Positions 766 to 10,977 of a stretch of DNA of 10,977 nt are shown here, piece by piece. Every line of letters starts with the position of its first letter. Position 1 is the first letter of the stretch. The translations under genes were made by a program, and so were the position numbers. The notes under the pieces are model-generated. The model did not search any database. It had not been told where the DNA came from and was given only the letters and a program-made list of their open reading frames with translations. The stretch lies in the IMG/VR virus record IMGVR_UViG_2648501338_000003, one strand, 5' to 3'. Source of the stretch: a virus (lineage: Duplodnaviria; Heunggongvirae; Uroviricota; Caudoviricetes).

Positions 766-2665
766 TATGATGGCTGCCGTTTCGGTTGCGCTGCAGCCTC
801 TGGTCAGGGTTGTACCAATGACGGCAGTTGAATGGGCTGATCAAAATTATTATCTGCCTAAAGAATCCTCATACGGTGAGGGCGAATGGAAAACGCTGCC
901 ATTCCAGATCGCCATTATGAACTGTATGGGTAACGACCAGGTTCGCACGGTTAACCTGATTAAATCTGCCCGTGTTGGCTATACAAAGATGTTGCTGGGG
1001 GTGGTCGGGTATTTTATTGAGCATAAATCCCGAAACAGTCTGCTTTTTCAGCCCACGGATTCTGCCGCTGAAGATTTTATGAAGTCTCACGTGGAGGCGA
1101 CGATTCGGAACGTGCCATGCCTGAAAGACCTTTCCCCATGGCTGGGTCGTAAACATCGTGACAATACTCTCACGCTGAAACGCTTTTCATCGGGCGTCGG
1201 TTTCTGGTGCCTGGGCGGCGCAGCCGCCAAAAACTACCGTGAAAAATCCGTGGACGTGGTCTGCTATGACGAACTTTCCTCGTTCGAGCCGGATGTCGAA
1301 AAAGAGGGCTCGCCAACCCTGCTGGGGGATAAGCGTATTGAGGGCTCGGTATGGCCAAAATCCATTCGCGGCTCGACGCCTAAAATCAAAGGCACCTGCC
1401 AGATCGAAAAAGCCGCCAACGAGTCGGCGCATTTCATGCGTTTCTATGTGCCCTGCCCGCACTGTGGGGAGGCGCAGTATCTGAAATTTGGCGATGAATC
1501 CACGCCTTTTGGCCTTAAATGGGAGAAGGACAGCCCCGAAAGCGTTTTCTACCTCTGTGAACATCATGGCTGCGTGATCCATCAGTCTGAACTGGACCAG
1601 AGCAACGGGCGCTGGATCTGTGAAAACACGGGCATGTGGACCCGTGACGGCCTGACGTTTTTCAGCGCCCGGGGGGATGAAATTCCGCCGCCGCGCTCCA
1701 TCACGTTCCATATCTGGACGGCGTACAGTCCGTTCACCACCTGGATACAGATAGTCTATGACTGGCTGGATGCACTGAAAGATCCCAACGGCCTGAAAAC
1801 CTTTGTGAACACCACGCTGGGCGAGACCTGGGAAGAAGCCGTGGGCGAAAAACTCGATCACCAGGTACTGATGGATAAGGTGGTGCATTACACGGCGGCG
1901 GTACCTGCCCGGGTGGTTTATCTGACGGCGGGCATTGACTCGCAGCGAAACCGTTTTGAGATGTATGTCTGGGGATGGGCACCGGGAGAGGAAGCTTTTC
2001 TGGTGGATAAAATCATCATTATGGGCCGTCCCGATGAGGAAGAGACGCTGTTACGTGTGGATGCGGCGATCAACAAAAAATACTGCCATGCAGACGGAAC
2101 CGAAATGACCATTTCCCGTGTCTGCTGGGACACCGGGGGGATCGATGGTGAAATTGTCTATCAGAGGTCAAAAAAACACGGTGTTTTCCGGGTGCTGCCG
2201 GTAAAAGGCGCATCTGTCTATGGCAAGCCGGTGATCACCATGCCGAAAACCCGCAATCAGCGGGGCGTGTATCTGTGTGAAGTGGGGACGGACACCGCAA
2301 AAGAAATTCTCTATGCCCGTATGAAAGCCGATCCCACTCCTGCGGATGAAGCCACGTCGTATGCCATCCGTTTTCCTGATGATCCGGAGATTTTTTCGCA
2401 GACAGAGGCGCAGCAACTGGTCGCGGAAGAGCTTGTGGAGAAGTGGGAAAAAGGAAAGATGCGTCTGCTGTGGGATAACAAAAAGCGGCGTAACGAAGCG
2501 CTGGACTGCCTGGTGTATGCCTACGCGGCATTACGTGTGTCCGTGCAACGCTGGCAGCTTGATCTGGCTGTACTGGCAAAATCCCGGGAAGAAGAGACGA
2601 CCCGGCCAACCCTGAAAGAACTGGCAGCGAAGCTGTCCGGAGGAGTGAATGGTTACAGTCGCTGA
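737..2665 (+). CDS. A: terminase large subunit (gpA-like; ATPase/nuclease)
   Basis: Starting from MNISEQQLNN, the protein aligns along its full length with lambda gpA (e.g. TAVEWADQNYYLPKESSYGEGEWKTLPFQ, KSARVGYTKMLLGV, CWDTGGIDGEIVYQRSKKHG, KKRRNEALDCLVYAYAALR). The ATG at 737 is chosen by homology to the lambda start MNISNSQ; the ORF track begins upstream at 680. Confidence 0.93.
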   Translation: MNISEQQLNNMMAAVSVALQPLVRVVPMTAVEWADQNYYLPKESSYGEGEWKTLPFQIAIMNCMGNDQVRTVNLIKSARVGYTKMLLGVVGYFIEHKSRNSLLFQPTDSAAEDFMKSHVEATIRNVPCLKDLSPWLGRKHRDNTLTLKRFSSGVGFWCLGGAAAKNYREKSVDVVCYDELSSFEPDVEKEGSPTLLGDKRIEGSVWPKSIRGSTPKIKGTCQIEKAANESAHFMRFYVPCPHCGEAQYLKFGDESTPFGLKWEKDSPESVFYLCEHHGCVIHQSELDQSNGRWICENTGMWTRDGLTFFSARGDEIPPPRSITFHIWTAYSPFTTWIQIVYDWLDALKDPNGLKTFVNTTLGETWEEAVGEKLDHQVLMDKVVHYTAAVPARVVYLTAGIDSQRNRFEMYVWGWAPGEEAFLVDKIIIMGRPDEEETLLRVDAAINKKYCHADGTEMTISRVCWDTGGIDGEIVYQRSKKHGVFRVLPVKGASVYGKPVITMPKTRNQRGVYLCEVGTDTAKEILYARMKADPTPADEATSYAIRFPDDPEIFSQTEAQQLVAEELVEKWEKGKMRLLWDNKKRRNEALDCLVYAYAALRVSVQRWQLDLAVLAKSREEETTRPTLKELAAKLSGGVNGYSR

Positions 2666-2855
2666 ACTACAGGCGCTACGTCAGGCGCGCCTTGATTTAT
2701 TAACCGGTAAACGGGTGGTGTCTGTCCAGAAAGATGGTCGCAGAATTGAATATACGGCGGCTTCTCTGGATGAGCTTAACCGGGCGATCAATGATGCGGA
2801 GTCGGTACTGGGGACAACCCGACGTCGCCGTCGTCCGCTGGGAGTGAGGTTATGA
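2649..2855 (+). CDS. W: head-tail joining protein W
   Basis: 68 aa, the same length as lambda gpW, and similar (LLTGKRVVSVQKDGRRIEYTAASL vs lambda [24 protein letters not shown]). GGAGG at 2639-2643 precedes the ATG at 2649. Overlaps the end of A by 17 nt. Confidence 0.88.
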   Translation: MVTVAELQALRQARLDLLTGKRVVSVQKDGRRIEYTAASLDELNRAINDAESVLGTTRRRRRPLGVRL

Positions 2856-4444
2856 AACGAACGCCTGTCCTGATTGATGTGAACGGCGTTCCGCTTCGTG
2901 AGAGTCTCAGCTACAACGGGGGCGGCGCAGGATTTGGCGGGCAAATGGCGGAGTGGTTGCCACCGGCGCAGAGTGCCGATGCAGCCCTGCTGCCTGCGTT
3001 GCGTCTGGGGAATGCCCGGGCAGATGATCTGGTGCGCAATAACGGGATAGCGGCCAATGCGGTGGCACTGCATAAGGATCATATTGTCGGGCATATGTTT
3101 CTGATCAGCTACCGTCCGAACTGGCGCTGGCTGGGGATGCGGGAGACTGCGGCAAAAAGTTTTGTCGATGAGGTGGAGGCGGCCTGGTCGGAATACGCCG
3201 AAGGGATGTCTGGCGAGATCGACGTGGAAGAGAAACGCACGTTTACGGAATTTATTCGTGAAGGTGTGGGCGTTCATGCGTTTAACGGCGAAATCTTTGT
3301 GCAGCCGGTCTGGGATACGGAGAGCACGCAACTGTTTCGTACGCGTTTTAAAGCCGTGAGTCCGAAACGGGTGGACACGCCAGGACACGGTATGGGGAAC
3401 CGTTTTCTGCGGGCCGGTGTGGAGGTCGATCGATATGGTCGTGCCGTTGCGTACCATATCTGTGAGGATGATTTTCCGTTCTCTGGGAGTGGACGATGGG
3501 AACGGATCCCGCGTGAACTTCCCACCGGGCGTCCGGCCATGCTGCATATTTTCGAGCCGGTGGAGGACGGGCAGACCCGTGGGGCCAATCAGTTTTACAG
3601 CGTAATGGAACGGCTGAAGATGCTCGATTCCCTGCAGGCAACACAGCTTCAGTCGGCCATAGTGAAGGCGATGTATGCAGCGACGATTGAAAGTGACCTT
3701 GATACCGAAAAGGCCTTTGAATATATCGCCGGTGCGCCGCAGGGGCAGAAGGATAATCCGCTTATTAATATTCTGGATAAGTTCTCCACCTGGTATGACA
3801 CGAATAGCGTGACGCTGGGCGGTGTCAAAATTCCGCACCTTTTCCCCGGTGATGATCTGAAACTTCAGACCGCGCAGGATTCAGACAATGGATTTTCGGC
3901 GCTTGAACAGGCGCTGCTGCGGTATATCGCCGCCGGTCTTGGCGTTTCCTACGAACAGTTGTCCCGTGATTACTCGAAGGTCAGTTATTCAAGTGCCCGC
4001 GCATCCGCCAATGAGTCGTGGCGCTATTTTATGGGGCGGCGAAAATTTATTGCGTCCCGGCTGGCCACGCAGATGTTTTCCTGCTGGCTGGAAGAGGCAC
4101 TTCTTCGGGGGATTATTCGTCCGCCACGGGCACGTTTTGATTTTTATCAGGCGCGATCAGCCTGGTCACGGGCTGAGTGGATTGGAGCCGGAAGAATGGC
4201 CATTGACGGGCTCAAGGAGGTTCAGGAATCAGTGATGCGCATTGAGGCCGGACTGAGCACGTATGAGAAAGAGCTGGCGCTGATGGGCGAGGATTATCAG
4301 GACATTTTCCGCCAGCAGGTCAGGGAATCTGCAGAGCGGGAAAAAGCCGGACTCTCACGTCCGGTGTGGATAGCGCAGGCGTATCAGCAGCAGATAGCGG
4401 AGAGTCGCAGGCCGGAAGAGGAGACAACACCACGTGAGACGTAA
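2852..4444 (+). CDS. B: portal protein (gpB-like)
   Basis: 530 aa with strong full-length similarity to lambda gpB (GNARADDLVRNNG, FEPVEDGQTRGANQFYSVME, LQTAQDSDNGFS, LLRYIAAGLGVSYEQLSR, GRMAIDGLKEVQE). Its ATG overlaps the W stop in an ATGA arrangement. Confidence 0.93.
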   Translation: MKRTPVLIDVNGVPLRESLSYNGGGAGFGGQMAEWLPPAQSADAALLPALRLGNARADDLVRNNGIAANAVALHKDHIVGHMFLISYRPNWRWLGMRETAAKSFVDEVEAAWSEYAEGMSGEIDVEEKRTFTEFIREGVGVHAFNGEIFVQPVWDTESTQLFRTRFKAVSPKRVDTPGHGMGNRFLRAGVEVDRYGRAVAYHICEDDFPFSGSGRWERIPRELPTGRPAMLHIFEPVEDGQTRGANQFYSVMERLKMLDSLQATQLQSAIVKAMYAATIESDLDTEKAFEYIAGAPQGQKDNPLINILDKFSTWYDTNSVTLGGVKIPHLFPGDDLKLQTAQDSDNGFSALEQALLRYIAAGLGVSYEQLSRDYSKVSYSSARASANESWRYFMGRRKFIASRLATQMFSCWLEEALLRGIIRPPRARFDFYQARSAWSRAEWIGAGRMAIDGLKEVQESVMRIEAGLSTYEKELALMGEDYQDIFRQQVRESAEREKAGLSRPVWIAQAYQQQIAESRRPEEETTPRET

Positions 4445-5939
4445 TCTTTCACACATTATTGCCGCAGCATTCAATGAACCGCTGCTTCTGGAGCCCGCCT
4501 ATGCGCGGGTTTTCTTTTGCGCGCTCGGGCGCGAGATGGGGGCAGCAAGTCTTTCGGTACCACAACAGCAGGTACAGCTTGATGCTCCCGGAATGCTGGC
4601 TGAAACGGACGAGTACATGGCCGGAGGTAAACGACCGGCCCGTGTTTACCGGGTGGTGAACGGTATTGCGGTACTGCCGGTGACCGGCACGCTGGTGCAC
4701 CGGCTGGGGGGGATGCGGCCATTTTCCGGAATGACAGGCTATGACGGCATTGTCGCCTGTCTTCAGCAGGCAATGGCAGATAGCCAGGTGCGGGGCATAC
4801 TGCTGGACATTGACAGTCCGGGCGGGCAGGCCGCCGGCGCGTTTGACTGCGCTGACATGATTTACCGCCTCCGTCAGCAGAAGCCGGTCTGGGCACTGTG
4901 CAATGACACGGCCTGTTCTGCAGCCATGCTGCTGGCGTCGGCCTGCTCCCGACGGCTGGTTACCCAGACATCCCGTATCGGCTCCATTGGCGTGATGATG
5001 AGCCATGTCAGCTATGCCGGTCATCTGGCGCAGGCCGGTGTGGATATCACGCTGATTTACTCAGGGGCGCACAAGGTGGATGGCAATCAGTTTGAAGCCT
5101 TACCGGCAGAGGTTCGCCAGGACATGCAGCAGCGCATTGATGCGGCGCGCCGGATGTTTGCCGAAAAAGTGGCGATGTTTACCGGTCTGTCTGTTGATGC
5201 CGTCACGGGAACAGAGGCCGCCGTTTTTGAAGGTCAGTCCGGCATTGAGGCCGGGCTGGCGGATGAATTAGTCAATGCGTCGGATGCCATCAGTGTGATG
5301 GCCACGGCGCTGAACAGTAATGTCAGAGGAGGCACTATGCCGCAATTAACTGCAACGGAAGCCGCCGCGCAGGAGAACCAGCGAGTGATGGGGATCCTGA
5401 CATGCCAGGAAGCGAAAGGACGTGAACAGCTTGCCACGATGCTGGCAGGACAACAGGGCATGAGCGTTGAACAGGCCCGGGCGATTCTGGCCGCGGCGGC
5501 ACCGCAGCAGCCGGTGGCATCCACGCAGAGTGAAGCCGATCGCATTATGGCGTGTGAAGAAGCGAACGGTCGTGAACAACTGGCGGCAACGCTGGCGGCG
5601 ATGCCGGAGATGACGGTGGAAAAAGCCCGCCCGATCCTGGCTGCTTCACCGCAGGCGGATGCCGGACCCTCACTCCGTGATCAGATCATGGCACTGGATG
5701 AGGCAAAAGGGGCTGAGGCGCAGGCTGAACAGCTGGCTGCCTGCCCGGGAATGACTGTGGAGAGCGCCCGGGCTGTGCTGGCTGCGGGATCAGGTAAGGC
5801 AGAACCGGTCTCTGCATCCACAACCGCCCTGTTTGAACGCATCATGGCGAACCATTCACCGGCAGCGGTACAGGGTGGCGTGCCACAGACGTCAGCAGAC
5901 GGTGATGCGGACGTGAAAATGCTCATGGCCATGCCATGA
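4434..5939 (+). CDS. C: head maturation protease / scaffold protein (gpC-like, S49/ClpP-type serine protease domain), with an extended repeat-containing C-terminal region
   Basis: 501 aa. The N-terminal 300 aa align with lambda gpC (AFNEPLLLEPAYARVFFCAL, GIAVLPVTGTLV, MTGYDGI, AGAFDCAD, KPVWALCNDTACSAA, SRRLVTQTSRIGSIGVMM, ITLIYSGAHKVDGN, GLSVDAV, TEAAVFEGQ, AGLADELVN). Proposed GTG start at 4434 follows AGAGGAG at 4417-4423; the exact start is uncertain. Overlaps the portal stop by 11 nt. Confidence 0.88.
   Translation: MRRNLSHIIAAAFNEPLLLEPAYARVFFCALGREMGAASLSVPQQQVQLDAPGMLAETDEYMAGGKRPARVYRVVNGIAVLPVTGTLVHRLGGMRPFSGMTGYDGIVACLQQAMADSQVRGILLDIDSPGGQAAGAFDCADMIYRLRQQKPVWALCNDTACSAAMLLASACSRRLVTQTSRIGSIGVMMSHVSYAGHLAQAGVDITLIYSGAHKVDGNQFEALPAEVRQDMQQRIDAARRMFAEKVAMFTGLSVDAVTGTEAAVFEGQSGIEAGLADELVNASDAISVMATALNSNVRGGTMPQLTATEAAAQENQRVMGILTCQEAKGREQLATMLAGQQGMSVEQARAILAAAAPQQPVASTQSEADRIMACEEANGREQLAATLAAMPEMTVEKARPILAASPQADAGPSLRDQIMALDEAKGAEAQAEQLAACPGMTVESARAVLAAGSGKAEPVSASTTALFERIMANHSPAAVQGGVPQTSADGDADVKMLMAMP
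5337..5939 (+). CDS. nu3: candidate nested in-frame scaffold protein (Nu3-like), produced by internal initiation within C
   Basis: In lambda, Nu3 is translated from an internal in-frame start in the 3-prime part of C. Here an in-frame ATG at 5337 is preceded by a strong Shine-Dalgarno sequence AGAGGAGG (5325-5332) and would give about 200 aa containing the scaffold repeats. The start is inferred, not proven. Confidence 0.4.
   Translation: MPQLTATEAAAQENQRVMGILTCQEAKGREQLATMLAGQQGMSVEQARAILAAAAPQQPVASTQSEADRIMACEEANGREQLAATLAAMPEMTVEKARPILAASPQADAGPSLRDQIMALDEAKGAEAQAEQLAACPGMTVESARAVLAAGSGKAEPVSASTTALFERIMANHSPAAVQGGVPQTSADGDADVKMLMAMP
5385..5840 (+). repeat. three diverged tandem copies of a roughly 47-53 aa scaffold motif (IMxxxEAxGREQLAxxLAxxPGMTVExARxILAA) within C/Nu3
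   Basis: Protein-level repeats begin at nt 5385 (VMGILTCQEAKGREQLATMLAGQQGMSVEQARAILAAA), 5544 (IMACEEANGREQLAATLAAMPEMTVEKARPILAAS) and 5685 (IMALDEAKGAEAQAEQLAACPGMTVESARAVLAAG), followed by a vestigial fourth IMA at about 5838. The copies are diverged at the DNA level. Confidence 0.75.
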
Positions 5940-5975: not shown

Positions 5976-6323
5976 ATGGTAACGAAAACCATCACTGAAC
6001 AGCGTGCGGAAGTACGTATTTTTGCCGGTAATGATCCGGCTCATACCGCCACAGGCAGCAGCGGGATTTCCTCGGCAACACCGGCACTGACGCCCCTGAT
6101 GCTGGATGAAGCCACCGGGAAACTGGTGGTCTGGGACGGACAGAAAGCCGGTAGTGCAGTTGGCATACTGGTACTGCCGCTTGAAGGCACAGAGACGGTA
6201 CTGACCTATTACAAGTCGGGGACCTTTGCGACGGAGGCAATCCGCTGGCCTGAAAGTGTGGATGAACACAAAAAGGCAAATGCCTTTGCCGGCAGTGCCC
6301 TGAGTCACGCGGCGCTGCCGTAA
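5976..6323 (+). CDS. D: head decoration protein (gpD-like)
   Basis: 115 aa, similar to lambda gpD (DPAHTATGSSG, PLMLDEATGKLVVWDG, AVGIL, YYKSGTF, AFAGSA). AGGAGG at 5960-5965 precedes the ATG at 5976. Confidence 0.92.
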   Translation: MVTKTITEQRAEVRIFAGNDPAHTATGSSGISSATPALTPLMLDEATGKLVVWDGQKAGSAVGILVLPLEGTETVLTYYKSGTFATEAIRWPESVDEHKKANAFAGSALSHAALP

Positions 6324-6330
6324 CACGTTA

Positions 6331-6352
6331 TCAGGCCACCGCGGTGGCCTGA
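6331..6352 (+). other. perfect 22-bp palindrome tcaggccaccgcggtggcctga in the D-E intergenic region (stable GC-rich RNA hairpin or dimeric protein site)
   Basis: The sequence equals its own reverse complement. It starts 8 nt after the D stop and ends 29 nt before the E start. No strong T-tract follows it. Confidence 0.7.
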
Positions 6353-6380
6353 CTGATTTCTGAATGAAAGGAACTGATTT

Positions 6381-7409
6381 ATGGGATTGTTTACGACCCG
6401 CCAGTTACTCGGTTATACCGAACAAAAAGTGAAATTTCGTGCGCTGTTTCTGGAGCTGTTTTTCCGCCGTACGGTGAATTTCCATACCGAAGAGGTGATG
6501 CTGGACAAAATTACCGGAAAAACGCCGGTGGCGGCCTATGTCTCCCCGGTTGTTGAAGGAAAAGTGCTGCGTCATCGCGGTGGTGAAACCCGCGTGTTAC
6601 GTCCGGGCTACGTCAAGCCGAAACACGAATTTAATTACCAGCAGGCGGTTGAGCGCCTTCCTGGTGAAGATCCGGCTCAACTGAACGATCCGGCTTACCG
6701 CCGTCTGCGTATCATTACCGATAACCTCAAACAGGAAGAGCACGCGATTGTCCAGGTGGAAGAAATACAGGCGGTAAATGCTGTGTTGTATGGCAAATAT
6801 ACGATGGAAGGAGACCAGTTCGAGAAAATTGAGGTCGATTTTGGCAGGTCGACGAAGAATAACATCACTCAGGGTAGTGGTAAGGAGTGGTCAAAACAGG
6901 ATCGTGACACGTTCGATCCTACACATGATCTTGACCTCTACTGCGACCAGGCCAGCGGTCTTGTGAATATTGCCATTATGGACGGTACCGTCTGGCGTCT
7001 TCTGAATGGTTTTAAGCTGTTCCGCGAAAAACTGGATACCCGTCGCGGTTCAAATTCTCAACTCGAAACGGCAGTGAAAGATCTGGGCGCAGTGGTGTCC
7101 TTCAAGGGGTATTACGGCGATCTGGCCATTGTGGTGGCGAAAACGTCTTATATAGCAGAAGACGGTATCGAAAAACGTTATCTGCCGGAGGGCATGCTGG
7201 TTCTGGGGAATACTGCTGCAGATGGGATCCGTTGTTACGGTGCCATTCAGGATGCGCAGGCGTTGTCCGAAGGTGTGGTGGCCTCTTCCCGTTATCCGAA
7301 ACACTGGCTGACGGTGGGGGATCCCGCCCGTGAATTTACCATGACGCAGTCCGCGCCGCTGATGGTGTTGCCGGACCCGGATGAGTTTGTGGTGGTACAG
7401 GTGAAATAA
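6381..7409 (+). CDS. E: major capsid protein (gpE-like)
   Basis: 342 aa (lambda gpE is 341 aa) with full-length similarity (PGYVKPKHE, DPAYRRLRII, VEEIQAVNAVLYGKYTM, KLDTRRGSNSQLETAVKDLG, YGDLAIVV, MVLGNT, TGDPAREFTMTQSAPLMVLPDPDEFV). AAGGA lies upstream of the ATG. Confidence 0.95.
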   Translation: MGLFTTRQLLGYTEQKVKFRALFLELFFRRTVNFHTEEVMLDKITGKTPVAAYVSPVVEGKVLRHRGGETRVLRPGYVKPKHEFNYQQAVERLPGEDPAQLNDPAYRRLRIITDNLKQEEHAIVQVEEIQAVNAVLYGKYTMEGDQFEKIEVDFGRSTKNNITQGSGKEWSKQDRDTFDPTHDLDLYCDQASGLVNIAIMDGTVWRLLNGFKLFREKLDTRRGSNSQLETAVKDLGAVVSFKGYYGDLAIVVAKTSYIAEDGIEKRYLPEGMLVLGNTAADGIRCYGAIQDAQALSEGVVASSRYPKHWLTVGDPAREFTMTQSAPLMVLPDPDEFVVVQVK

Positions 7410-7417
7410 TCCGTGAG

Positions 7418-7446
7418 CGGGGGCGAAATGCCCCCGTGTCTTTTTT
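7418..7446 (+). terminator. terminator-like hairpin: 7-bp GC stem (cgggggc / gcccccg, loop gaaat) followed by tgtc and a run of six T (7441-7446)
   Basis: Seen directly in the sequence, 9 nt after the E stop. The T-run is separated from the stem by 4 nt, so it is an imperfect intrinsic terminator. An alternative hairpin overlaps it (see findings). Confidence 0.45.
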
Positions 7447-7460
7447 CACAGGGGGCTGAT

Positions 7461-7835
7461 ATGGCAACGAAAGAGCAAAATCTGAAACGGCTTGATGAAC
7501 TGGCCCTGATTCTGGGGCGTGAGCCGGATATATCCGGGAGTGCCGCAGAGATAGCGCAGCGGGTGGCGGAATGGGAAGAGGAAATACAGTCATCCGGCGA
7601 GGATGTTCAGGTTGGGGATACGGTGATCCGGGAGCGGGAAACCGCGGCTCATGATGTTCGTGAGGATACATCCGGTGCGTTAACGCGCATCAGAGTTCTG
7701 ACCTGCCTCCATCTCTGTGGCATTGATGGTGAAACAGGGGAATCCGTTGAGATTGCGGATGTTGGTCGGGTGATTCTGATTATGTCCTCAGATGCAAAAA
7801 CACACGTTGATGGCGGAATGGCTGTTTATGCGTGA
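7461..7835 (+). CDS. FI: DNA-packaging / head-assembly protein FI-like
   Basis: Sits between E and FII where lambda has FI, with similar size (125 aa from the ATG at 7461) and an acidic central region; sequence similarity to lambda FI is weak. The ORF track starts at GTG 7413, but that lies inside the hairpin, so the ATG at 7461 (MATKEQNLKRL) is preferred. Confidence 0.65.
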   Translation: MATKEQNLKRLDELALILGREPDISGSAAEIAQRVAEWEEEIQSSGEDVQVGDTVIRERETAAHDVREDTSGALTRIRVLTCLHLCGIDGETGESVEIADVGRVILIMSSDAKTHVDGGMAVYA

Positions 7836-8181
7836 TTTTCAGAATGCCTTTGATGCTGCCCTTGCCGGGGTGGACAGTACGATTGTTGAAGTGATGGGGC
7901 TCTGTGCACAGTTCACCTCGGGGGCACAGTGTGGCAGAGAAGTTCAGGGGGTTTTTGACGATCCGGAGTCGCTGGGATTTGCCGGTAGCGGGGTCCGTAT
8001 TGAAGGAAGCAGCCCGTCATTATTTGTACGGACGGATACGGTTCGTGCTGTGCGGCGTGGTGACACGCTGACCATTAATGGTGAGACATTCTGGGTGGAT
8101 CGTGTTTCTCCGGATGACGGGGGCAGCTGTTATCTCTGGCTCAACCGTGGGCAACCACCCGCAGTTAACCGGCGACGATAA
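7828..8181 (+). CDS. FII: head-tail connector protein FII
   Basis: Strong similarity to lambda gpFII (FDAALAG, GVFDDPES, GSGVRIEGSSPSLFVRTD, RRGDTLTI, FWVDRVSPDDGGSCYLWL, RGQPPAVNRRR). Start at ATG 7828 (MRDFQNAFDAA) is chosen by alignment to the lambda N-terminus MADFDNLFDAA; it overlaps the FI stop. Confidence 0.9.
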   Translation: MRDFQNAFDAALAGVDSTIVEVMGLCAQFTSGAQCGREVQGVFDDPESLGFAGSGVRIEGSSPSLFVRTDTVRAVRRGDTLTINGETFWVDRVSPDDGGSCYLWLNRGQPPAVNRRR

Positions 8182-8196
8182 ACGCAGGGTGAAATT

Positions 8197-8730
8197 ATGG
8201 CGATAAAAGGGCTTGAGCAGGCGATTGACAATCTGAGCCGGGTTCGTAAAAACGCCATTCCGGCGGCTTCAGCAATGACCATTAACCGCGTGGCCACAAC
8301 GGCGATTAATCAGTCTTCATCACAGGTTGCCCGGGAAACAAAGGTGAGACGGAAACTGGTTAAGGAACGGTCCAGACTGAAACGGGCCACGGTCAGAAAT
8401 CCGAATGCCAGAATTATCGTTAACCGCGGTGATCTCCCGGTGATTAAGCTGGGGATCAGGATGCCGGGGCGTCGCCCGGACAGCATACTCAAAGCCGGTC
8501 AGCATCGGTATCAGCGGGCATTTATTCAGCGATTAAAAAATGGTCGCTGGCATGTCATGCAGCGTGTGGCCGGGAAAAACCGTTACCCCATTGATGTGGT
8601 GAAAATCCCGATGGCGGCCCCACTGAAACAGGCGTTTGATGAGAATGTTGACCGTATCCGGCGTGAACGACTGCCCAAAGAACTGGCATACGCGCTGAAA
8701 CAACAACTGAGGATTGCAATAAAACGATGA
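8197..8730 (+). CDS. Z: tail completion protein Z
   Basis: 177 aa, similar to lambda gpZ (KGLEQAI, QVARETKVRRKLVKERSRLKRATV, RGDLPVIKLG, FIQRLKNGRWHVMQRVAGKNRYPIDVVKIPMA, RIRRERLPKEL). Confidence 0.92.
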   Translation: MAIKGLEQAIDNLSRVRKNAIPAASAMTINRVATTAINQSSSQVARETKVRRKLVKERSRLKRATVRNPNARIIVNRGDLPVIKLGIRMPGRRPDSILKAGQHRYQRAFIQRLKNGRWHVMQRVAGKNRYPIDVVKIPMAAPLKQAFDENVDRIRRERLPKELAYALKQQLRIAIKR

Positions 8731-9122
8731 AACACACTGACATCCGTGCCGCAGTGCTGGATGCACTCGAGCAGCATGAACACGGGGCGACGCTGTTTGA
8801 TGGTCGCCCCGTTGTTTTTGACGAAGAGGATTTTCCCGCGATCGCGGTTTATCTGACGGATGCAGAGTATACCGGTGAAGAGCTGGATGCAGATACCTGG
8901 CGGGCCACACTGCATATTGAGGTGTTTTTACCAGCACAGGTACCGGATTCAGAGCTGGATCAGTGGATGGAAAGCCGGATTTACCCGGCGATGACCGCGA
9001 TCCCGGCACTGGCAGAACTGATTACCACGATGGTTACGCAGGGCTATGAGTATCGTCGTGATGACGATATGGCGTTATGGAGTTCTGCAGATCTGACTTA
9101 TTCCATTACATACGAGATGTGA
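8727..9122 (+). CDS. U: tail terminator protein U
   Basis: 131 aa (same as lambda gpU) and near-collinear with it ([80 protein letters not shown]). ATGA overlap with the Z stop. Confidence 0.95.
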
Positions 9123-9129
9123 GGACGAT

Positions 9130-9882
9130 ATGGCAACACCAAATCCCCTTGAGCCGGTAAAAGGTGCCGGTACCACCCTGTGGGCTTACAACGGCAAGGG
9201 TGACGCCTATGCAAACCCGTTGTCAGACGATGACTGGCAGCGACTGGCTAAGGTGAAGGATCTGACGCCGGGCGAGATGACGGCAGAACCCTACGATGAT
9301 AACTACCTGGATGATGAAGACGCGGACTGGACCGCGACCGGGCAGGGGCAGAAATCTGCAGGAGATACCAGTTTTACGCTGGCCTGGAAACCGGGAGAAG
9401 AAGGCCAGAAAGGGCTTATAGGCTGGTTTGAAAGCGGGGATGTGCGGGCCTATAAAATCCGTTTTCCGAACGGCACGGTGGATGTGTTTCGTGGCTGGGT
9501 CAGCAGTATCGGTAAGGCCGTGACGGCGAAAGAAGTGATCACCCGCACGGTGAAAGTCACCAACGTGGGCAAACCTTCTGTAGCGGAAGAACGCAGCAAA
9601 ATTACGCCGGTCACTGCGATTAAGGTGACGCCGACATCCGGTACGGTGGCAAAAGGGAAAACAACCACCCTGACGGTTTCTTTTGAGCCGGAAAGTGCAA
9701 CAGACAAGACGTTCAGAGCGGTTTCCGCCGATCCGTCGAAAGCCACCATTAGTGTGAAAGATATGACAATTACGGTAAACGGCGTGGCGACAGGTAAGGT
9801 GCAGATCCCTGTGGTGAGCGGAAATGGTCAGTTCGCCGCAGTGGCTGAAGTCACCGTTACTGAAGCGGGCGCTGCAGGGTAA
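9130..9882 (+). CDS. V: major tail protein V with C-terminal Ig-like (Big_2-type) domain
   Basis: 250 aa, with strong similarity to lambda gpV ([131 protein letters not shown]). Confidence 0.95.
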
Positions 9883-9895
9883 ACGGAGGTAATAC

Positions 9896-10328
9896 ATGTT
9901 TCTGAAAACAGAACAATTTGAATATAACGGTGTGTCCGTCACGCTTTCCGAATTGTCTGCGCTGCAGCGTATCGAGCATCTTGCCCTCCTGAAACGGCGT
10001 GCAGAACAGGCAGAATCCAGCGGCAACCTGCAGGTAAGCGTGGAAGATCTCGTCAGAACCGGCGCGTTTCTGGTGGCGATGTCCCTGTGGCATAACCATC
10101 CACAGAAAACGGCAGTCACCGTCAATGAATGAGGCCGTGATGAAGATAGAACAGGAAGTGCTCACCACCTGGCCTGCCGATGCCATTGCCCGGGCGGAAG
10201 ACGTGGTGTTGCGCCTGTCCGGGATGAGCGAAGCTGTTCATCCGGATACTGACAGCACCGAAGTGGCGAAAAATAACACGCTGACTGATGATGATTTTTC
10301 TGCGGGAAAGTCTTCGACGGCGAGCTGA
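9896..10328 (+). pseudogene. G: tail assembly chaperone G, interrupted by a +1 frame break near 10110-10125 (fragments 9896-10132 and 10125-10328)
   Basis: ORF 9896-10132 (MFLKTEQFEYNGVSVTLSELSALQRIEHLALLKR...WHNHPQKT) matches the N-terminal part of lambda gpG. ORF 10125-10328 (MNEAVMKIEQEVLTTWPADAIARAEDVVLRLSGM...AGKSSTAS) matches the C-terminal part but is in a different frame. The homologous reading resumes one nucleotide out of frame, consistent with a single extra base near 10112. Confidence 0.6.
10304..10310 (+). other. -1 programmed ribosomal frameshift slippery heptamer G GGA AAG (G to G-T fusion)
   Basis: GGGAAAG at 10304-10310 is positioned as G|GGA|AAG in the G reading frame, 6 codons before the G stop. 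The -1 frame is open from here to 10813. This is the same heptamer and position as the lambda G-T frameshift. Confidence 0.8.
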
Positions 10329-10813
10329 ACTTTACCCTCAGACTGGCGCGTGAGATGGGGAGACCCGACTGGCGCGCCATGCTTGCCGGGATGACATCCA
10401 CCGAATATGCCGACTGGCGCGCCATGCTTGCCGGGATGACATCCACCGAATATGCCGACTGGCGACATTTTTACCGCACGCATTATTTTCACGATACCCA
10501 ACTGGATATGCATTTTTCCGGGCTGACGTACGCCGTACTCAGCCTGTTTTTTTGCGATCCGGATATGCATCCCTCTGATTTCAGTCTGCTTGCCCCCCGG
10601 CATGAGGAAGAGCAGACGGAGAGGCCGGATGAGGAAAAAATGCTGATGCAGAAAGCGGCAGGACTTGCCGGAGGCGTCCGGTTCGGTGGGGACGGAGGGC
10701 GCGATATTTTATCGTCTGCGGATGTGGCGGATGTCATGGTGGATGATGCCGCATTAATGATGGCTTCAGCGGGGATTCCGGGAGGTGTGAGATATGTCCC
10801 AGCCGGTTGGTGA
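10304..10813 (+). CDS. T: T segment of the G-T tail assembly fusion protein (no independent start; reached by -1 frameshift from G)
   Basis: The -1 frame from the slippery site reads GKVFDGELNFTLRLAREMGRPDWRAMLAGM...HYFHD...LDMHFSGLTY...LSLFF.DPDMHP.DFSLL...LMQKAAGLAGGVRFG...GGVRY, matching lambda gpT as I recall it. It ends at TGA 10811-10813, overlapping the H start. Confidence 0.75.
   Translation, partial: GKVFDGELNFTLRLAREMGRPDWRAMLAGMTSTEYADWRAMLAGMTSTEYADWRHFYRTHYFHDTQLDMHFSGLTYAVLSLFFCDPDMHPSDFSLLAPRHEEEQTERPDEEKMLMQKAAGLAGGVRFGGDGGRDILSSADVADVMVDDAALMMASAGIPGGVRYVPAGW
10367..10456 (+). repeat. perfect 45-bp tandem duplication (2 x gactggcgcgccatgcttgccgggatgacatccaccgaatatgcc), encoding DWRAMLAGMTSTEYA twice in the T frame
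   Basis: Copies at 10367-10411 and 10412-10456 are 100 percent identical. Each copy and the downstream flank (10457-10464) begin with the same 8-bp gactggcg. The duplication is in frame (15 aa) in the T reading frame. Confidence 0.9.
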
Positions 10814-10977
10814 TCTTGTTATTGACCTGAGTCTGGATGCGGTCCGTTTCGATGAGCAGATGAGCCGGGTAAGGCGTCATTTTTCAGGTCTGGATACCGA
10901 CGTCAGAAAAACCGCCAGTGCTGTTGAACAGGGCCTGAGCCGCCAGGCGCTGGCTGCACAAAAAGCCGGGATTTCCG
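10794..10977 (+). CDS. H: tail tape-measure protein H, N-terminal fragment (continues beyond the window)
   Basis: The ATG at 10794 is preceded by GGAGGTG at 10781-10787. The translation MSQPVGDLVIDLSLDAVRFDEQMSRVRRHFSG...LSRQALAAQKAGIS matches the lambda gpH N-terminus (MAEPVGDLVVDLSLDAARFDEQMARVRRHFSG). It is absent from the ORF track because it runs off the window end. Confidence 0.88.
   Translation, partial: MSQPVGDLVIDLSLDAVRFDEQMSRVRRHFSGLDTDVRKTASAVEQGLSRQALAAQKAGIS

What the first reader, a model, noticed from the sequence alone, without database searches (positions are those of the whole stretch)
10367..10464. Perfect 45-bp tandem duplication in the T part of G-T, flanked by 8-bp direct repeats
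Two identical 45-bp units (10367-10411, 10412-10456) insert an exact 15-aa repeat (DWRAMLAGMTSTEYA) into the T domain; lambda, as I recall it, has one copy (RPDWRAMLAGMSSTEYADWHRFY). Each unit and the downstream flank begin with gactggcg, the signature of slipped-strand or short-homology duplication. Perfect identity suggests a recent event and a site prone to copy-number change. The T domain of G-T is thought to mediate interaction with the assembling tail, so copy number might affect tail assembly. It could also be an assembly artefact.
Basis: seen in the sequence. Interest (0 to 1): 0.5.

Follow-up and report, generated by a model that had tools for sequence, protein, structure and literature searches.

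The report
Recurrent 45-bp duplication in gene T
A lambda-like prophage in an E. coli draft genome carries a real but rare, recent, in-frame 45-bp tandem duplication in its tail-assembly gene T, of the kind made by copying slippage between two short direct repeats, which is an ordinary mutation and not a new system.

Summary
Window 10365-10464 holds 2.2 perfect copies of a 45-bp unit (TRF), adding 15 residues (DWRAMLAGMTSTEYA) to the T part of the lambda-type G-T tail assembly chaperone.

The flanking direct repeat is 10 bp (CCGACTGGCG), not 8. Single-copy relatives carry 8-11-bp versions of it 45 bp apart, which is the substrate expected for slipped-strand or short-homology duplication.

The two-copy allele is rare:
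- 2 of 5,426 complete E. coli genomes
- 0 of 50,697 phage records and 0 of 72,556 plasmids
- none found in IMG/VR or JGI metagenome contigs, where the normal junction is present

It sits on three different T backbones. One is at least 99% identical to single-copy versions in 511 genomes, so it arose at least twice. One lineage carries it unchanged in at least 13 assemblies with intact neighbouring tail genes. This makes an assembly artefact unlikely as a general explanation.

In this contig (JHSS01000063.1) gene G also has a private 1-bp insertion that stops translation upstream of the slip site. If that insertion is real, G-T is not made here at all.

The functional effect of the duplication is untested. 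The finding is ordinary and of low interest.

The parts
9896..10328 (+). Gene G (tail assembly chaperone), split in this contig by one extra G at 10111/10112. Frame 1 stops at 10130-10132; the rest of G reads in the next frame to TGA at 10326-10328.
   Evidence: Translations. Alignment with three relatives shows AAAACGGCAG against AAAACGCAG. Pfam PF06894 positions 1-74 and 77-122 fall on the two fragments. None of 1,396 genomes with this segment has the extra base.
10304..10310 (+). Slippery heptamer G GGA AAG for the -1 frameshift from G into T.
   Evidence: Read from the sequence. G-frame codons are GGA AAG, and the T frame is open from here to 10813. The role is assigned by analogy with lambda (PMC5009743).
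10311..10813 (+). T-frame coding segment of G-T, with the stop codon at 10811-10813. It contains the duplication near its N-terminal end.
   Evidence: Translation. Pfam PF06223 scores 54.8 bits against a cutoff of 25.9 and matches residues 29-107 of the 152-aa ORF that starts at 10355.
10365..10374 (+). Direct repeat CCGACTGGCG, copy 1 (left boundary).
   Evidence: Present at the same place in single-copy relatives.
10367..10411 (+). 45-bp unit 1, encoding DWRAMLAGMTSTEYA.
10412..10456 (+). 45-bp unit 2, identical to unit 1. The novel junction lies at 10411|10412.
   Evidence: A junction-specific 44-nt query (10393-10436) matches only 2 of 5,426 complete genomes.
10455..10464 (+). Direct repeat CCGACTGGCG, third occurrence (right boundary; the ADWR codons of the normal downstream context).
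10341..10348 (+). Additional GACTGGCG, 26 bp upstream of unit 1 (the LRLAR codons). Slippage with this copy would be out of frame.
10794..10977 (+). Start of the tape-measure gene H. The contig ends inside it.
   Evidence: Gene calls on the source contig. Annotation of relatives.

Best explanation
This is a genuine, recent, in-frame tandem duplication of 45 bp in the T segment of the G-T tail assembly chaperone gene of a lambda-like prophage. The source is E. coli draft assembly GCA_001266095.1, contig JHSS01000063.1.

How it arose (inferred from anatomy): the single-copy gene has a 10-bp direct repeat, CCGACTGGCG, occurring twice exactly 45 bp apart. It encodes the two (P/A)DWR motifs that bracket the most conserved stretch of T. 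Misalignment of the nascent strand between these two repeats during replication, or short-homology unequal exchange, copies the intervening 45 bp once more.

The same event has happened at least twice in different prophage backbones, but it is rare.

Effect on the protein (inferred): the upstream context with copy 1 and copy 2 with the downstream context are both native. The product therefore keeps one complete T core preceded by 15 extra residues near the G/T junction. This amounts to a longer linker that carries a spare copy of the conserved motif. I expect it to be neutral or mildly harmful, not a new function.

In this contig G also has a private +1 insertion. It terminates translation 170 nt before the slip site, so if that base is real no full-length G or G-T is made and the tail module is already defective.
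For: Shown:
- Perfect 2.2 x 45 bp array and an in-frame 15-aa repeat.
- Identity of the gene: PF06223 for T, PF06894 for G, and the order V-G-T-H.
- Closest relatives lack exactly one 45-bp unit and keep the 10-bp repeat at both ends.
- In 172 other T loci from IMG/VR and metagenomes the 8-11-bp direct repeat 45 bp apart is present and none has two tandem units.
- The duplication junction is found in 2 of 5,426 complete E. coli genomes by megablast and by word-11 blastn. It is found in 0 phage records, 0 plasmids, 0 IMG/VR contigs and 0 metagenome contigs. The normal junction is found in at least 120 IMG/VR and 52 metagenome contigs.
- Three backbones carry it.
- The AUSMDU00014361 backbone, with the duplication collapsed, is at least 99% identical and single-copy in 511 genomes.
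- The exact collapsed 'parent' proteins of the C325 and AUSMDU alleles are on 23 and 22 contigs.
- The C325-type allele is on 12 contigs (10 read) plus the C325 chromosome. All are 100% identical over 820 bp, with intact G (143 aa), H, M and L.
- The duplicated residues are the most conserved block of T.
- The G frameshift is seen.

Against: - There is no read-level evidence for this contig. It is a short draft contig that ends inside H, in a gene cluster present in a median of 2 and up to 8 places per E. coli genome. Copy number and the 1-bp insertion could therefore be assembly or sequencing errors here.
- The slippage mechanism is inferred from anatomy only.
- The window and C325 alleles are identical from -108 to +125 around the duplication. 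These two could share one origin followed by recombination, with reversion in single-copy relatives.
- The neutral or mildly harmful effect is a guess. The AlphaFold2 model of T was poor (mean pLDDT 41) and no mutational data on this part of T could be read.
Confidence: 0.8

Rival explanations
1. Assembly artefact. The source genome has one copy, and the assembler traversed a short loop twice or merged reads from paralogous prophages.
For: The contig is a 10,977-bp piece of a draft assembly that breaks inside H. G-T-H is multi-copy in many E. coli genomes. A second anomaly private to this contig, the +1 G in gene G, lies 255 bp upstream. This exact two-copy protein is on this contig only.
Against: A two-copy path needs reads that contain the novel junction. 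The identical junction exists in two independently finished genomes and on 12 further contigs carrying the C325-type protein, 10 of which were read. The allele is therefore biologically real, and the site is known to produce it.
Confidence: 0.1
2. Single origin. The duplication arose once and was moved between prophage backbones by homologous recombination among lambdoid prophages, not by recurrent slippage.
For: Lambdoid prophages are mosaic; AUSMDU00014361 has a different G joined to a similar T. The window and C325 alleles are identical for 233 bp around the duplication. The 90-bp block is identical in all three.
Against: In AUSMDU00014361 the nearest differences from the other two alleles lie 13 bp upstream of unit 1 and 3 bp beyond the third direct repeat. 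Transfer would need a conversion tract of only about 113 bp. With the duplication collapsed, that backbone is at least 99% identical and single-copy in 511 genomes. The duplicated block is nearly invariant in all T alleles, so its identity carries no information about descent.
Confidence: 0.15
3. Selected functional variant. A second copy of the most conserved T motif changes the interaction with the major tail protein, changes the G:G-T balance, or helps evade a host sensor, and is kept for that reason.
For: The duplicated residues are the most conserved in T. One lineage keeps the allele unchanged in at least 13 assemblies with intact tail genes. The same event recurs. Tail assembly chaperones are targets of a bacterial Avs sensor (PMC12803255).
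Against: The allele is very rare: 2 of 5,426 genomes and none in 50,697 phage records, including close relatives that are propagated phages. The reported sensor binds the N-terminal G core, not T. The 13 assemblies carry one identical prophage, so this may be clonal inheritance. The predicted RNA structure next to the slip site is unchanged by the duplication. In this contig G is broken.
Confidence: 0.05

Closest known systems
Bacteriophage lambda G / G-T tail assembly chaperone (genes G and T, -1 programmed frameshift at G GGA AAG)
   Same: Same gene order (V-G-T-H). Same Pfam families (PF06894, PF06223). Same slippery heptamer, with T open in the -1 frame. The T N-terminal motif RPDWRAMLAGM(S/T)STEYADW is nearly identical.
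   Different: This allele has the 15-residue motif twice. Its downstream motif is DWRH, not lambda's DWHR, which lengthens the DNA direct repeat. G is interrupted by a 1-bp insertion in this contig.
Two-copy T alleles of E. coli C325 (NZ_CP124819.1, WP_282633157.1) and AUSMDU00014361 (NZ_CP045827.1, WP_250667838.1)
   Same: Identical 90-bp duplicated block and identical breakpoints.
   Different: The backbones differ. C325 differs at 17 of 820 flanking positions. AUSMDU00014361 has a mosaic G, an apparent A AAA AAG slip site and a T that is about 90% identical. Both have an intact G.
Slipped-strand or short-homology (RecA-independent) tandem duplication between short direct repeats in bacteria and phages
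   Same: Head-to-tail identical copies. Each unit begins with the short repeat that also follows the array. The single-copy form has the repeat twice at a spacing equal to the unit length.
   Different: Nothing distinguishes it in anatomy. The process itself was not observed here.

Membership tests
Lambda-type G/G-T tail assembly chaperone locus | Upstream ORF of the TAC family (PF06894) located between the major tail protein gene and the tape measure gene | tested here: met
   PF06894 matches both G fragments (E = 1.7e-33 and 3.6e-11). The order V (PF16461), G, T, H is seen on the source contig and in relatives.
Lambda-type G/G-T tail assembly chaperone locus | Slippery heptamer near the 3' end of G, with the T ORF open in the -1 frame | tested here: met
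   G GGA AAG lies at 10304-10310. The -1 frame is open to 10813.
Lambda-type G/G-T tail assembly chaperone locus | T domain (PF06223) | tested here: met
   54.8 bits against a cutoff of 25.9. One stretch, residues 29-107 of the 152-aa ORF, beginning in copy 2.
Lambda-type G/G-T tail assembly chaperone locus | Uninterrupted G reading frame from its ATG to the slip site, needed to make gpG and gpGT | tested here: not met
   An extra G at 10111/10112 brings a stop at 10130-10132. It is absent from all 1,396 genomes that hold this segment. It may be a sequencing error.
Lambda-type G/G-T tail assembly chaperone locus | Frameshifting actually occurs, and T binds the major tail protein | not testable with these tools
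   Known for lambda (PMC5009743; PMC4493119). Not measured for this prophage.
Short-homology (slipped-strand) tandem duplication | Perfect head-to-tail copies whose unit length equals the spacing of a short direct repeat in the single-copy form | tested here: met
   In 172 other loci the 8-11-bp repeat lies 45 bp apart.
Short-homology (slipped-strand) tandem duplication | Nearest relatives are single-copy and otherwise identical | tested here: met
   The exact collapsed proteins of the C325 and AUSMDU alleles are on 23 and 22 contigs. 511 genomes are at least 99% identical to the collapsed AUSMDU backbone. The window's own collapsed protein is not in the collection.
Short-homology (slipped-strand) tandem duplication | Presence in the real genome (reads or amplicon) | not testable with these tools
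   No reads are available. Support is indirect, from other assemblies with the same junction.
Contingency (phase-variable) repeat locus | Many copy-number states among close relatives, usually switching the reading frame or expression | tested here: not met
   Only one or two copies were seen. The three-copy proteins are not in the collection. The unit is 45 bp (3 x 15), so the frame never changes. The two-copy state is in 2 of 5,426 genomes.

The most novel reading that the evidence does not exclude
The recurrent doubling of the most conserved motif of the T domain is not neutral. A G-T with two (P/A)DWR-bracketed motifs would bind or release the major tail protein differently, or escape a host sensor of tail chaperones, and would be kept by selection in some prophage lineages such as the C325-type lineage seen in at least 13 assemblies.
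Probability: 0.05. Interest if true: 0.4.

Novelty: new member of a known kind. Interest (0 to 1): 0.12.

Why it matters
It matters little. The locus is a clean natural example of a short-homology tandem duplication recurring at the same codons of a well-studied phage gene.

It marks a position in G-T, just after the G/T junction, where a 15-residue insertion persists in at least one prophage lineage whose neighbouring tail genes are intact. This could guide linker or tag insertion experiments on the lambda tail chaperone.

There are two practical points for annotation:
- RefSeq starts T at an internal Met in two-copy genomes, which partly hides the duplication.
- The frameshift in G shows that this contig's tail module is either defective or carries a sequencing error.

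Tried and rejected
- **Structure of the two-copy T domain.** An AlphaFold2 run with a 30-sequence alignment gave mean pLDDT 41 and pTM 0.24. This is too poor for a fold search or any structural claim. Only the helix pattern was noted, and I did not rely on it.
- **Solved structures.** A profile search for T found only chance matches, E about 0.5-0.9.
- **Species-representative genomes.** A degenerate junction pattern gave three hits, in a Clostridiales MAG, Brevibacillus and Actinocorallia. For two of them the translation shows an isolated EYADWRAM peptide in sequence that does not resemble T. The third gave no such reading frame in my check. I treat all three as chance matches.
- **Longer T proteins.** The 148-176-aa hits are N-terminally extended or read through at the C-terminus. 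They are not duplicated.
- **Effect on frameshifting.** The predicted RNA structure just downstream of the slip site is the same with one or two copies, and the duplication starts 57 nt after the heptamer. I rejected this as unlikely, although it was not measured.
- **Primary literature.** The papers of Xu, Hendrix and Duda on the T domain are not held, so I used secondary accounts.
- **Coverage as a test of copy number.** Coverage of a long query cannot separate one-copy from two-copy genomes, because the tool joins the two overlapping pieces. I replaced it with a 44-nt junction query that one-copy genomes cannot cover.

Full report
**What is there.** The window is the whole of contig JHSS01000063.1 (10,977 bp) of the E. 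coli draft assembly GCA_001266095.1. It encodes the left arm of a lambda-like prophage: Nu1, A, W, portal, protease/scaffold, D, E, FI, FII, Z, U, V, G, T and the first 184 bp of the tape-measure gene H.

TRF finds a single tandem array in the window, at 10365-10464, with period 45, 2.2 copies, 100% matches and no indels. Read directly, unit 1 is 10367-10411 and unit 2 is 10412-10456. GACTGGCG begins each unit and also the downstream flank at 10457. The shared boundary is in fact 10 bp, CCGACTGGCG, at 10365, 10410 and 10455. One more GACTGGCG lies at 10341.

In the T frame the region reads MGRPDWRAMLAGMTSTEYADWRAMLAGMTSTEYADWRHFY.

**Which gene.** The ORF that contains the repeat matches Pfam Phage_tail_T (PF06223, 54.8 bits, cutoff 25.9). 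The two ORF fragments upstream match the lambda G chaperone family (PF06894). The heptamer G GGA AAG lies at 10304-10310 in the G frame, and the -1 frame is open from there to 10813. This is the lambda G/G-T arrangement.

In lambda, about one ribosome in thirty slips to make gpGT. [quoted passage not shown] Neither gpG nor gpGT is in the virion (PMC5009743; PMC4493119).

**Relatives are single-copy.** Against 5,426 complete E. coli genomes, the G-T-H segment matches in 3,646 genomes. The best hits (98.5% and below) span 1,036 bp in the record against 1,082 bp of query, in two pieces. They lack one 45-bp unit and one further base. The same holds for phage records.

The alignment shows that strain Z1323HEC0422 lacks exactly one unit and keeps CCGACTGGCG at both ends of the remaining one. 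Thirty T proteins of 61-96% identity all have one copy. The duplicated residues, DWRAMLAGM(S/T)STEYA followed by DW, are the most conserved block of the protein.

**How rare is the two-copy allele.** I used a 44-nt query centred on the novel junction (10393-10436). It was chosen so that a one-copy gene cannot cover it. Results by collection:

| Collection | Duplication junction | Normal junction (control) |
|---|---|---|
| Complete E. coli genomes (5,426) | 2 (C325, Spain; AUSMDU00014361, Australia), by megablast and by word-11 blastn at E <= 1e-6 | n/a |
| Phage records (50,697) | 0 | n/a |
| Plasmids (72,556) | 0 | n/a |
| IMG/VR contigs | 0 | at least 120 contigs |
| JGI metagenome contigs | 0 | 52 contigs |
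| GTDB species-representative genomes | 3 matches in unrelated taxa, treated as chance | n/a |

The last three rows used degenerate peptide-level junction patterns (E/STEYADWRAML). For two of the three GTDB matches the translation shows an isolated EYADWRAM peptide in non-T sequence.

Among the 172 loci fetched by the control scans, none has two tandem units.

Exact-sequence look-ups in the 15-billion-protein collection gave:
- The window's two-copy protein is on this contig only.
- The C325-type protein is on 12 contigs as the 152-aa form and on 4 contigs as the 140-aa form.
- The AUSMDU-type protein is on one contig.
- Three-copy versions are absent.

**One origin or several.** The 10 C325-type draft contigs that were read and the C325 chromosome are 100% identical over 820 bp around the duplication. 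They have intact G (143 aa), H, M and L. This is one prophage lineage that inherits the allele stably.

AUSMDU00014361 has a very different G, an apparent A AAA AAG slip site and a T only about 90% identical. Its nearest differences from the other two alleles lie 13 bp upstream of unit 1 and 3 bp after the third direct repeat. With the duplication collapsed, its 756-bp G-T-H segment is at least 99% identical and single-copy in 511 complete genomes of many serotypes. That duplication is therefore a private, independent event.

The exact collapsed proteins of the C325 and AUSMDU alleles exist on 23 and 22 contigs. The window differs from C325 at 17 of 820 flanking positions but is identical from -108 to +125. 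A third independent origin is likely, but a shared origin with later recombination or reversion is not excluded.

I conclude that the event arose at least twice and probably three times.

**Mechanism.** The single-copy gene carries an 8-11-bp direct repeat exactly 45 bp apart in all 172 loci examined. The repeat is 8 bp in the commonest allele and 10-11 bp in alleles of the window's type. The repeat exists because the protein has two (P/A)DWR motifs encoded by the same codons.

This anatomy is what replication slippage or short-homology unequal exchange produces:
- identical head-to-tail units;
- a unit length equal to the repeat spacing;
- the repeat present at both ends and at the junction.

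This step is inferred. No tool here observes the process.

The 26-bp spacing to the extra GACTGGCG at 10341 would give an out-of-frame product. That may be why only the 45-bp event is seen.

**Consequence for the protein.** This part is inferred. In a tandem duplication both native contexts survive: the upstream flank joined to copy 1, and copy 2 joined to the downstream flank. Pfam aligns the T domain from residue 29, in copy 2, onward. The simplest reading is an intact T core preceded by 15 extra residues near the G/T junction.

The AlphaFold2 model was too poor to say more (pLDDT 41), and no solved relative exists. Persistence of the allele in a lineage with intact tail genes is compatible with tolerance. 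Other small in-frame changes also occur in T:
- a 9-bp repeat that is x2 here (10718-10735) and x3 in IMG/VR locus L041;
- an 11-residue insertion in P0097.

Prophage genes can, however, persist without being used. No propagated phage in the collection has the allele. The predicted RNA structure next to the slip site does not change with copy number.

Gene G has one extra G at 10111/10112: AAAACGGCAG against AAAACGCAG in all three aligned relatives. The G frame then stops at 10130-10132, which is 170 nt before the slip site. Pfam positions 1-74 and 77-122 of the G family fall on two separate ORFs, and the source annotation calls two genes.

None of 1,396 complete genomes with this segment has the extra base; the best match is 98% identity over a 49-bp span. 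If the base is real, neither gpG nor gpGT can be made, and the duplication has no consequence in this genome. If it is a sequencing error, it lowers trust in this end of the contig. Reads would settle both questions.

**Artefact?** A two-copy contig path needs reads with the novel junction. The identical junction is present in two finished genomes and in a dozen other contigs, so the allele is real in nature. For this contig I put the chance of an artefact at about 10%.

**Verdict.** This is a real, rare, recent and recurrent short-homology tandem duplication in a well-known gene. It is an allele, not a system. Interest is low.

Noticed in passing
window 10111-10112 (gene G, 9896-10328): One extra G frameshifts gene G, giving a stop at 10130-10132. 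An ATG at 10125 overlaps that stop and opens the remaining 67 codons. The extra base is private to this contig among 1,396 genomes with this segment. It is either a real inactivating mutation or a sequencing error.
   Followed up: yes
window 10341-10348: A fourth GACTGGCG lies 26 bp upstream of unit 1, so the single-copy gene has three copies of the 8-mer within 100 bp. Slippage with this one would be out of frame.
   Followed up: partly
window 10718-10735; L041 (IMG/VR): A 9-bp repeat GCGGATGTG is present twice in the C-terminal part of T (SADVADV) and three times in IMG/VR locus L041. This is another small in-frame repeat polymorphism in T.
   Followed up: partly
L124 (IMG/VR contig, reverse strand 1865-5909 and 6146-10157): Two G-T-H modules lie in tandem on one viral contig, about 80% identical to each other. 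One is close to the window (97-98%) and one is lambda-like. This is either adjacent prophages, a module duplication or a chimeric assembly.
   Followed up: no
L001 1499-1921 and L002 1499-1921 (C325, AUSMDU00014361); the window equivalent starts at 10391: RefSeq annotation starts T at an internal Met (Met13 of the 152-aa ORF, inside copy 1) in two-copy genomes, giving 140-aa proteins (WP_282633157.1, WP_250667838.1, WP_249436970.1). This partly hides the duplication. T has no independent start in lambda; it is made only as G-T.
   Followed up: partly
L002 about 1400-1440 (AUSMDU00014361): This prophage joins a very different G gene, with an apparent A AAA AAG slip site in place of G GGA AAG, to a T of the same family. 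The mosaic junction lies close to the slip site.
   Followed up: no
window 10794-10977: The contig ends 184 bp into the tape-measure gene H. This is typical of draft assemblies breaking where several lambdoid prophages share sequence (median 2, up to 8 G-T-H places per genome).
   Followed up: partly
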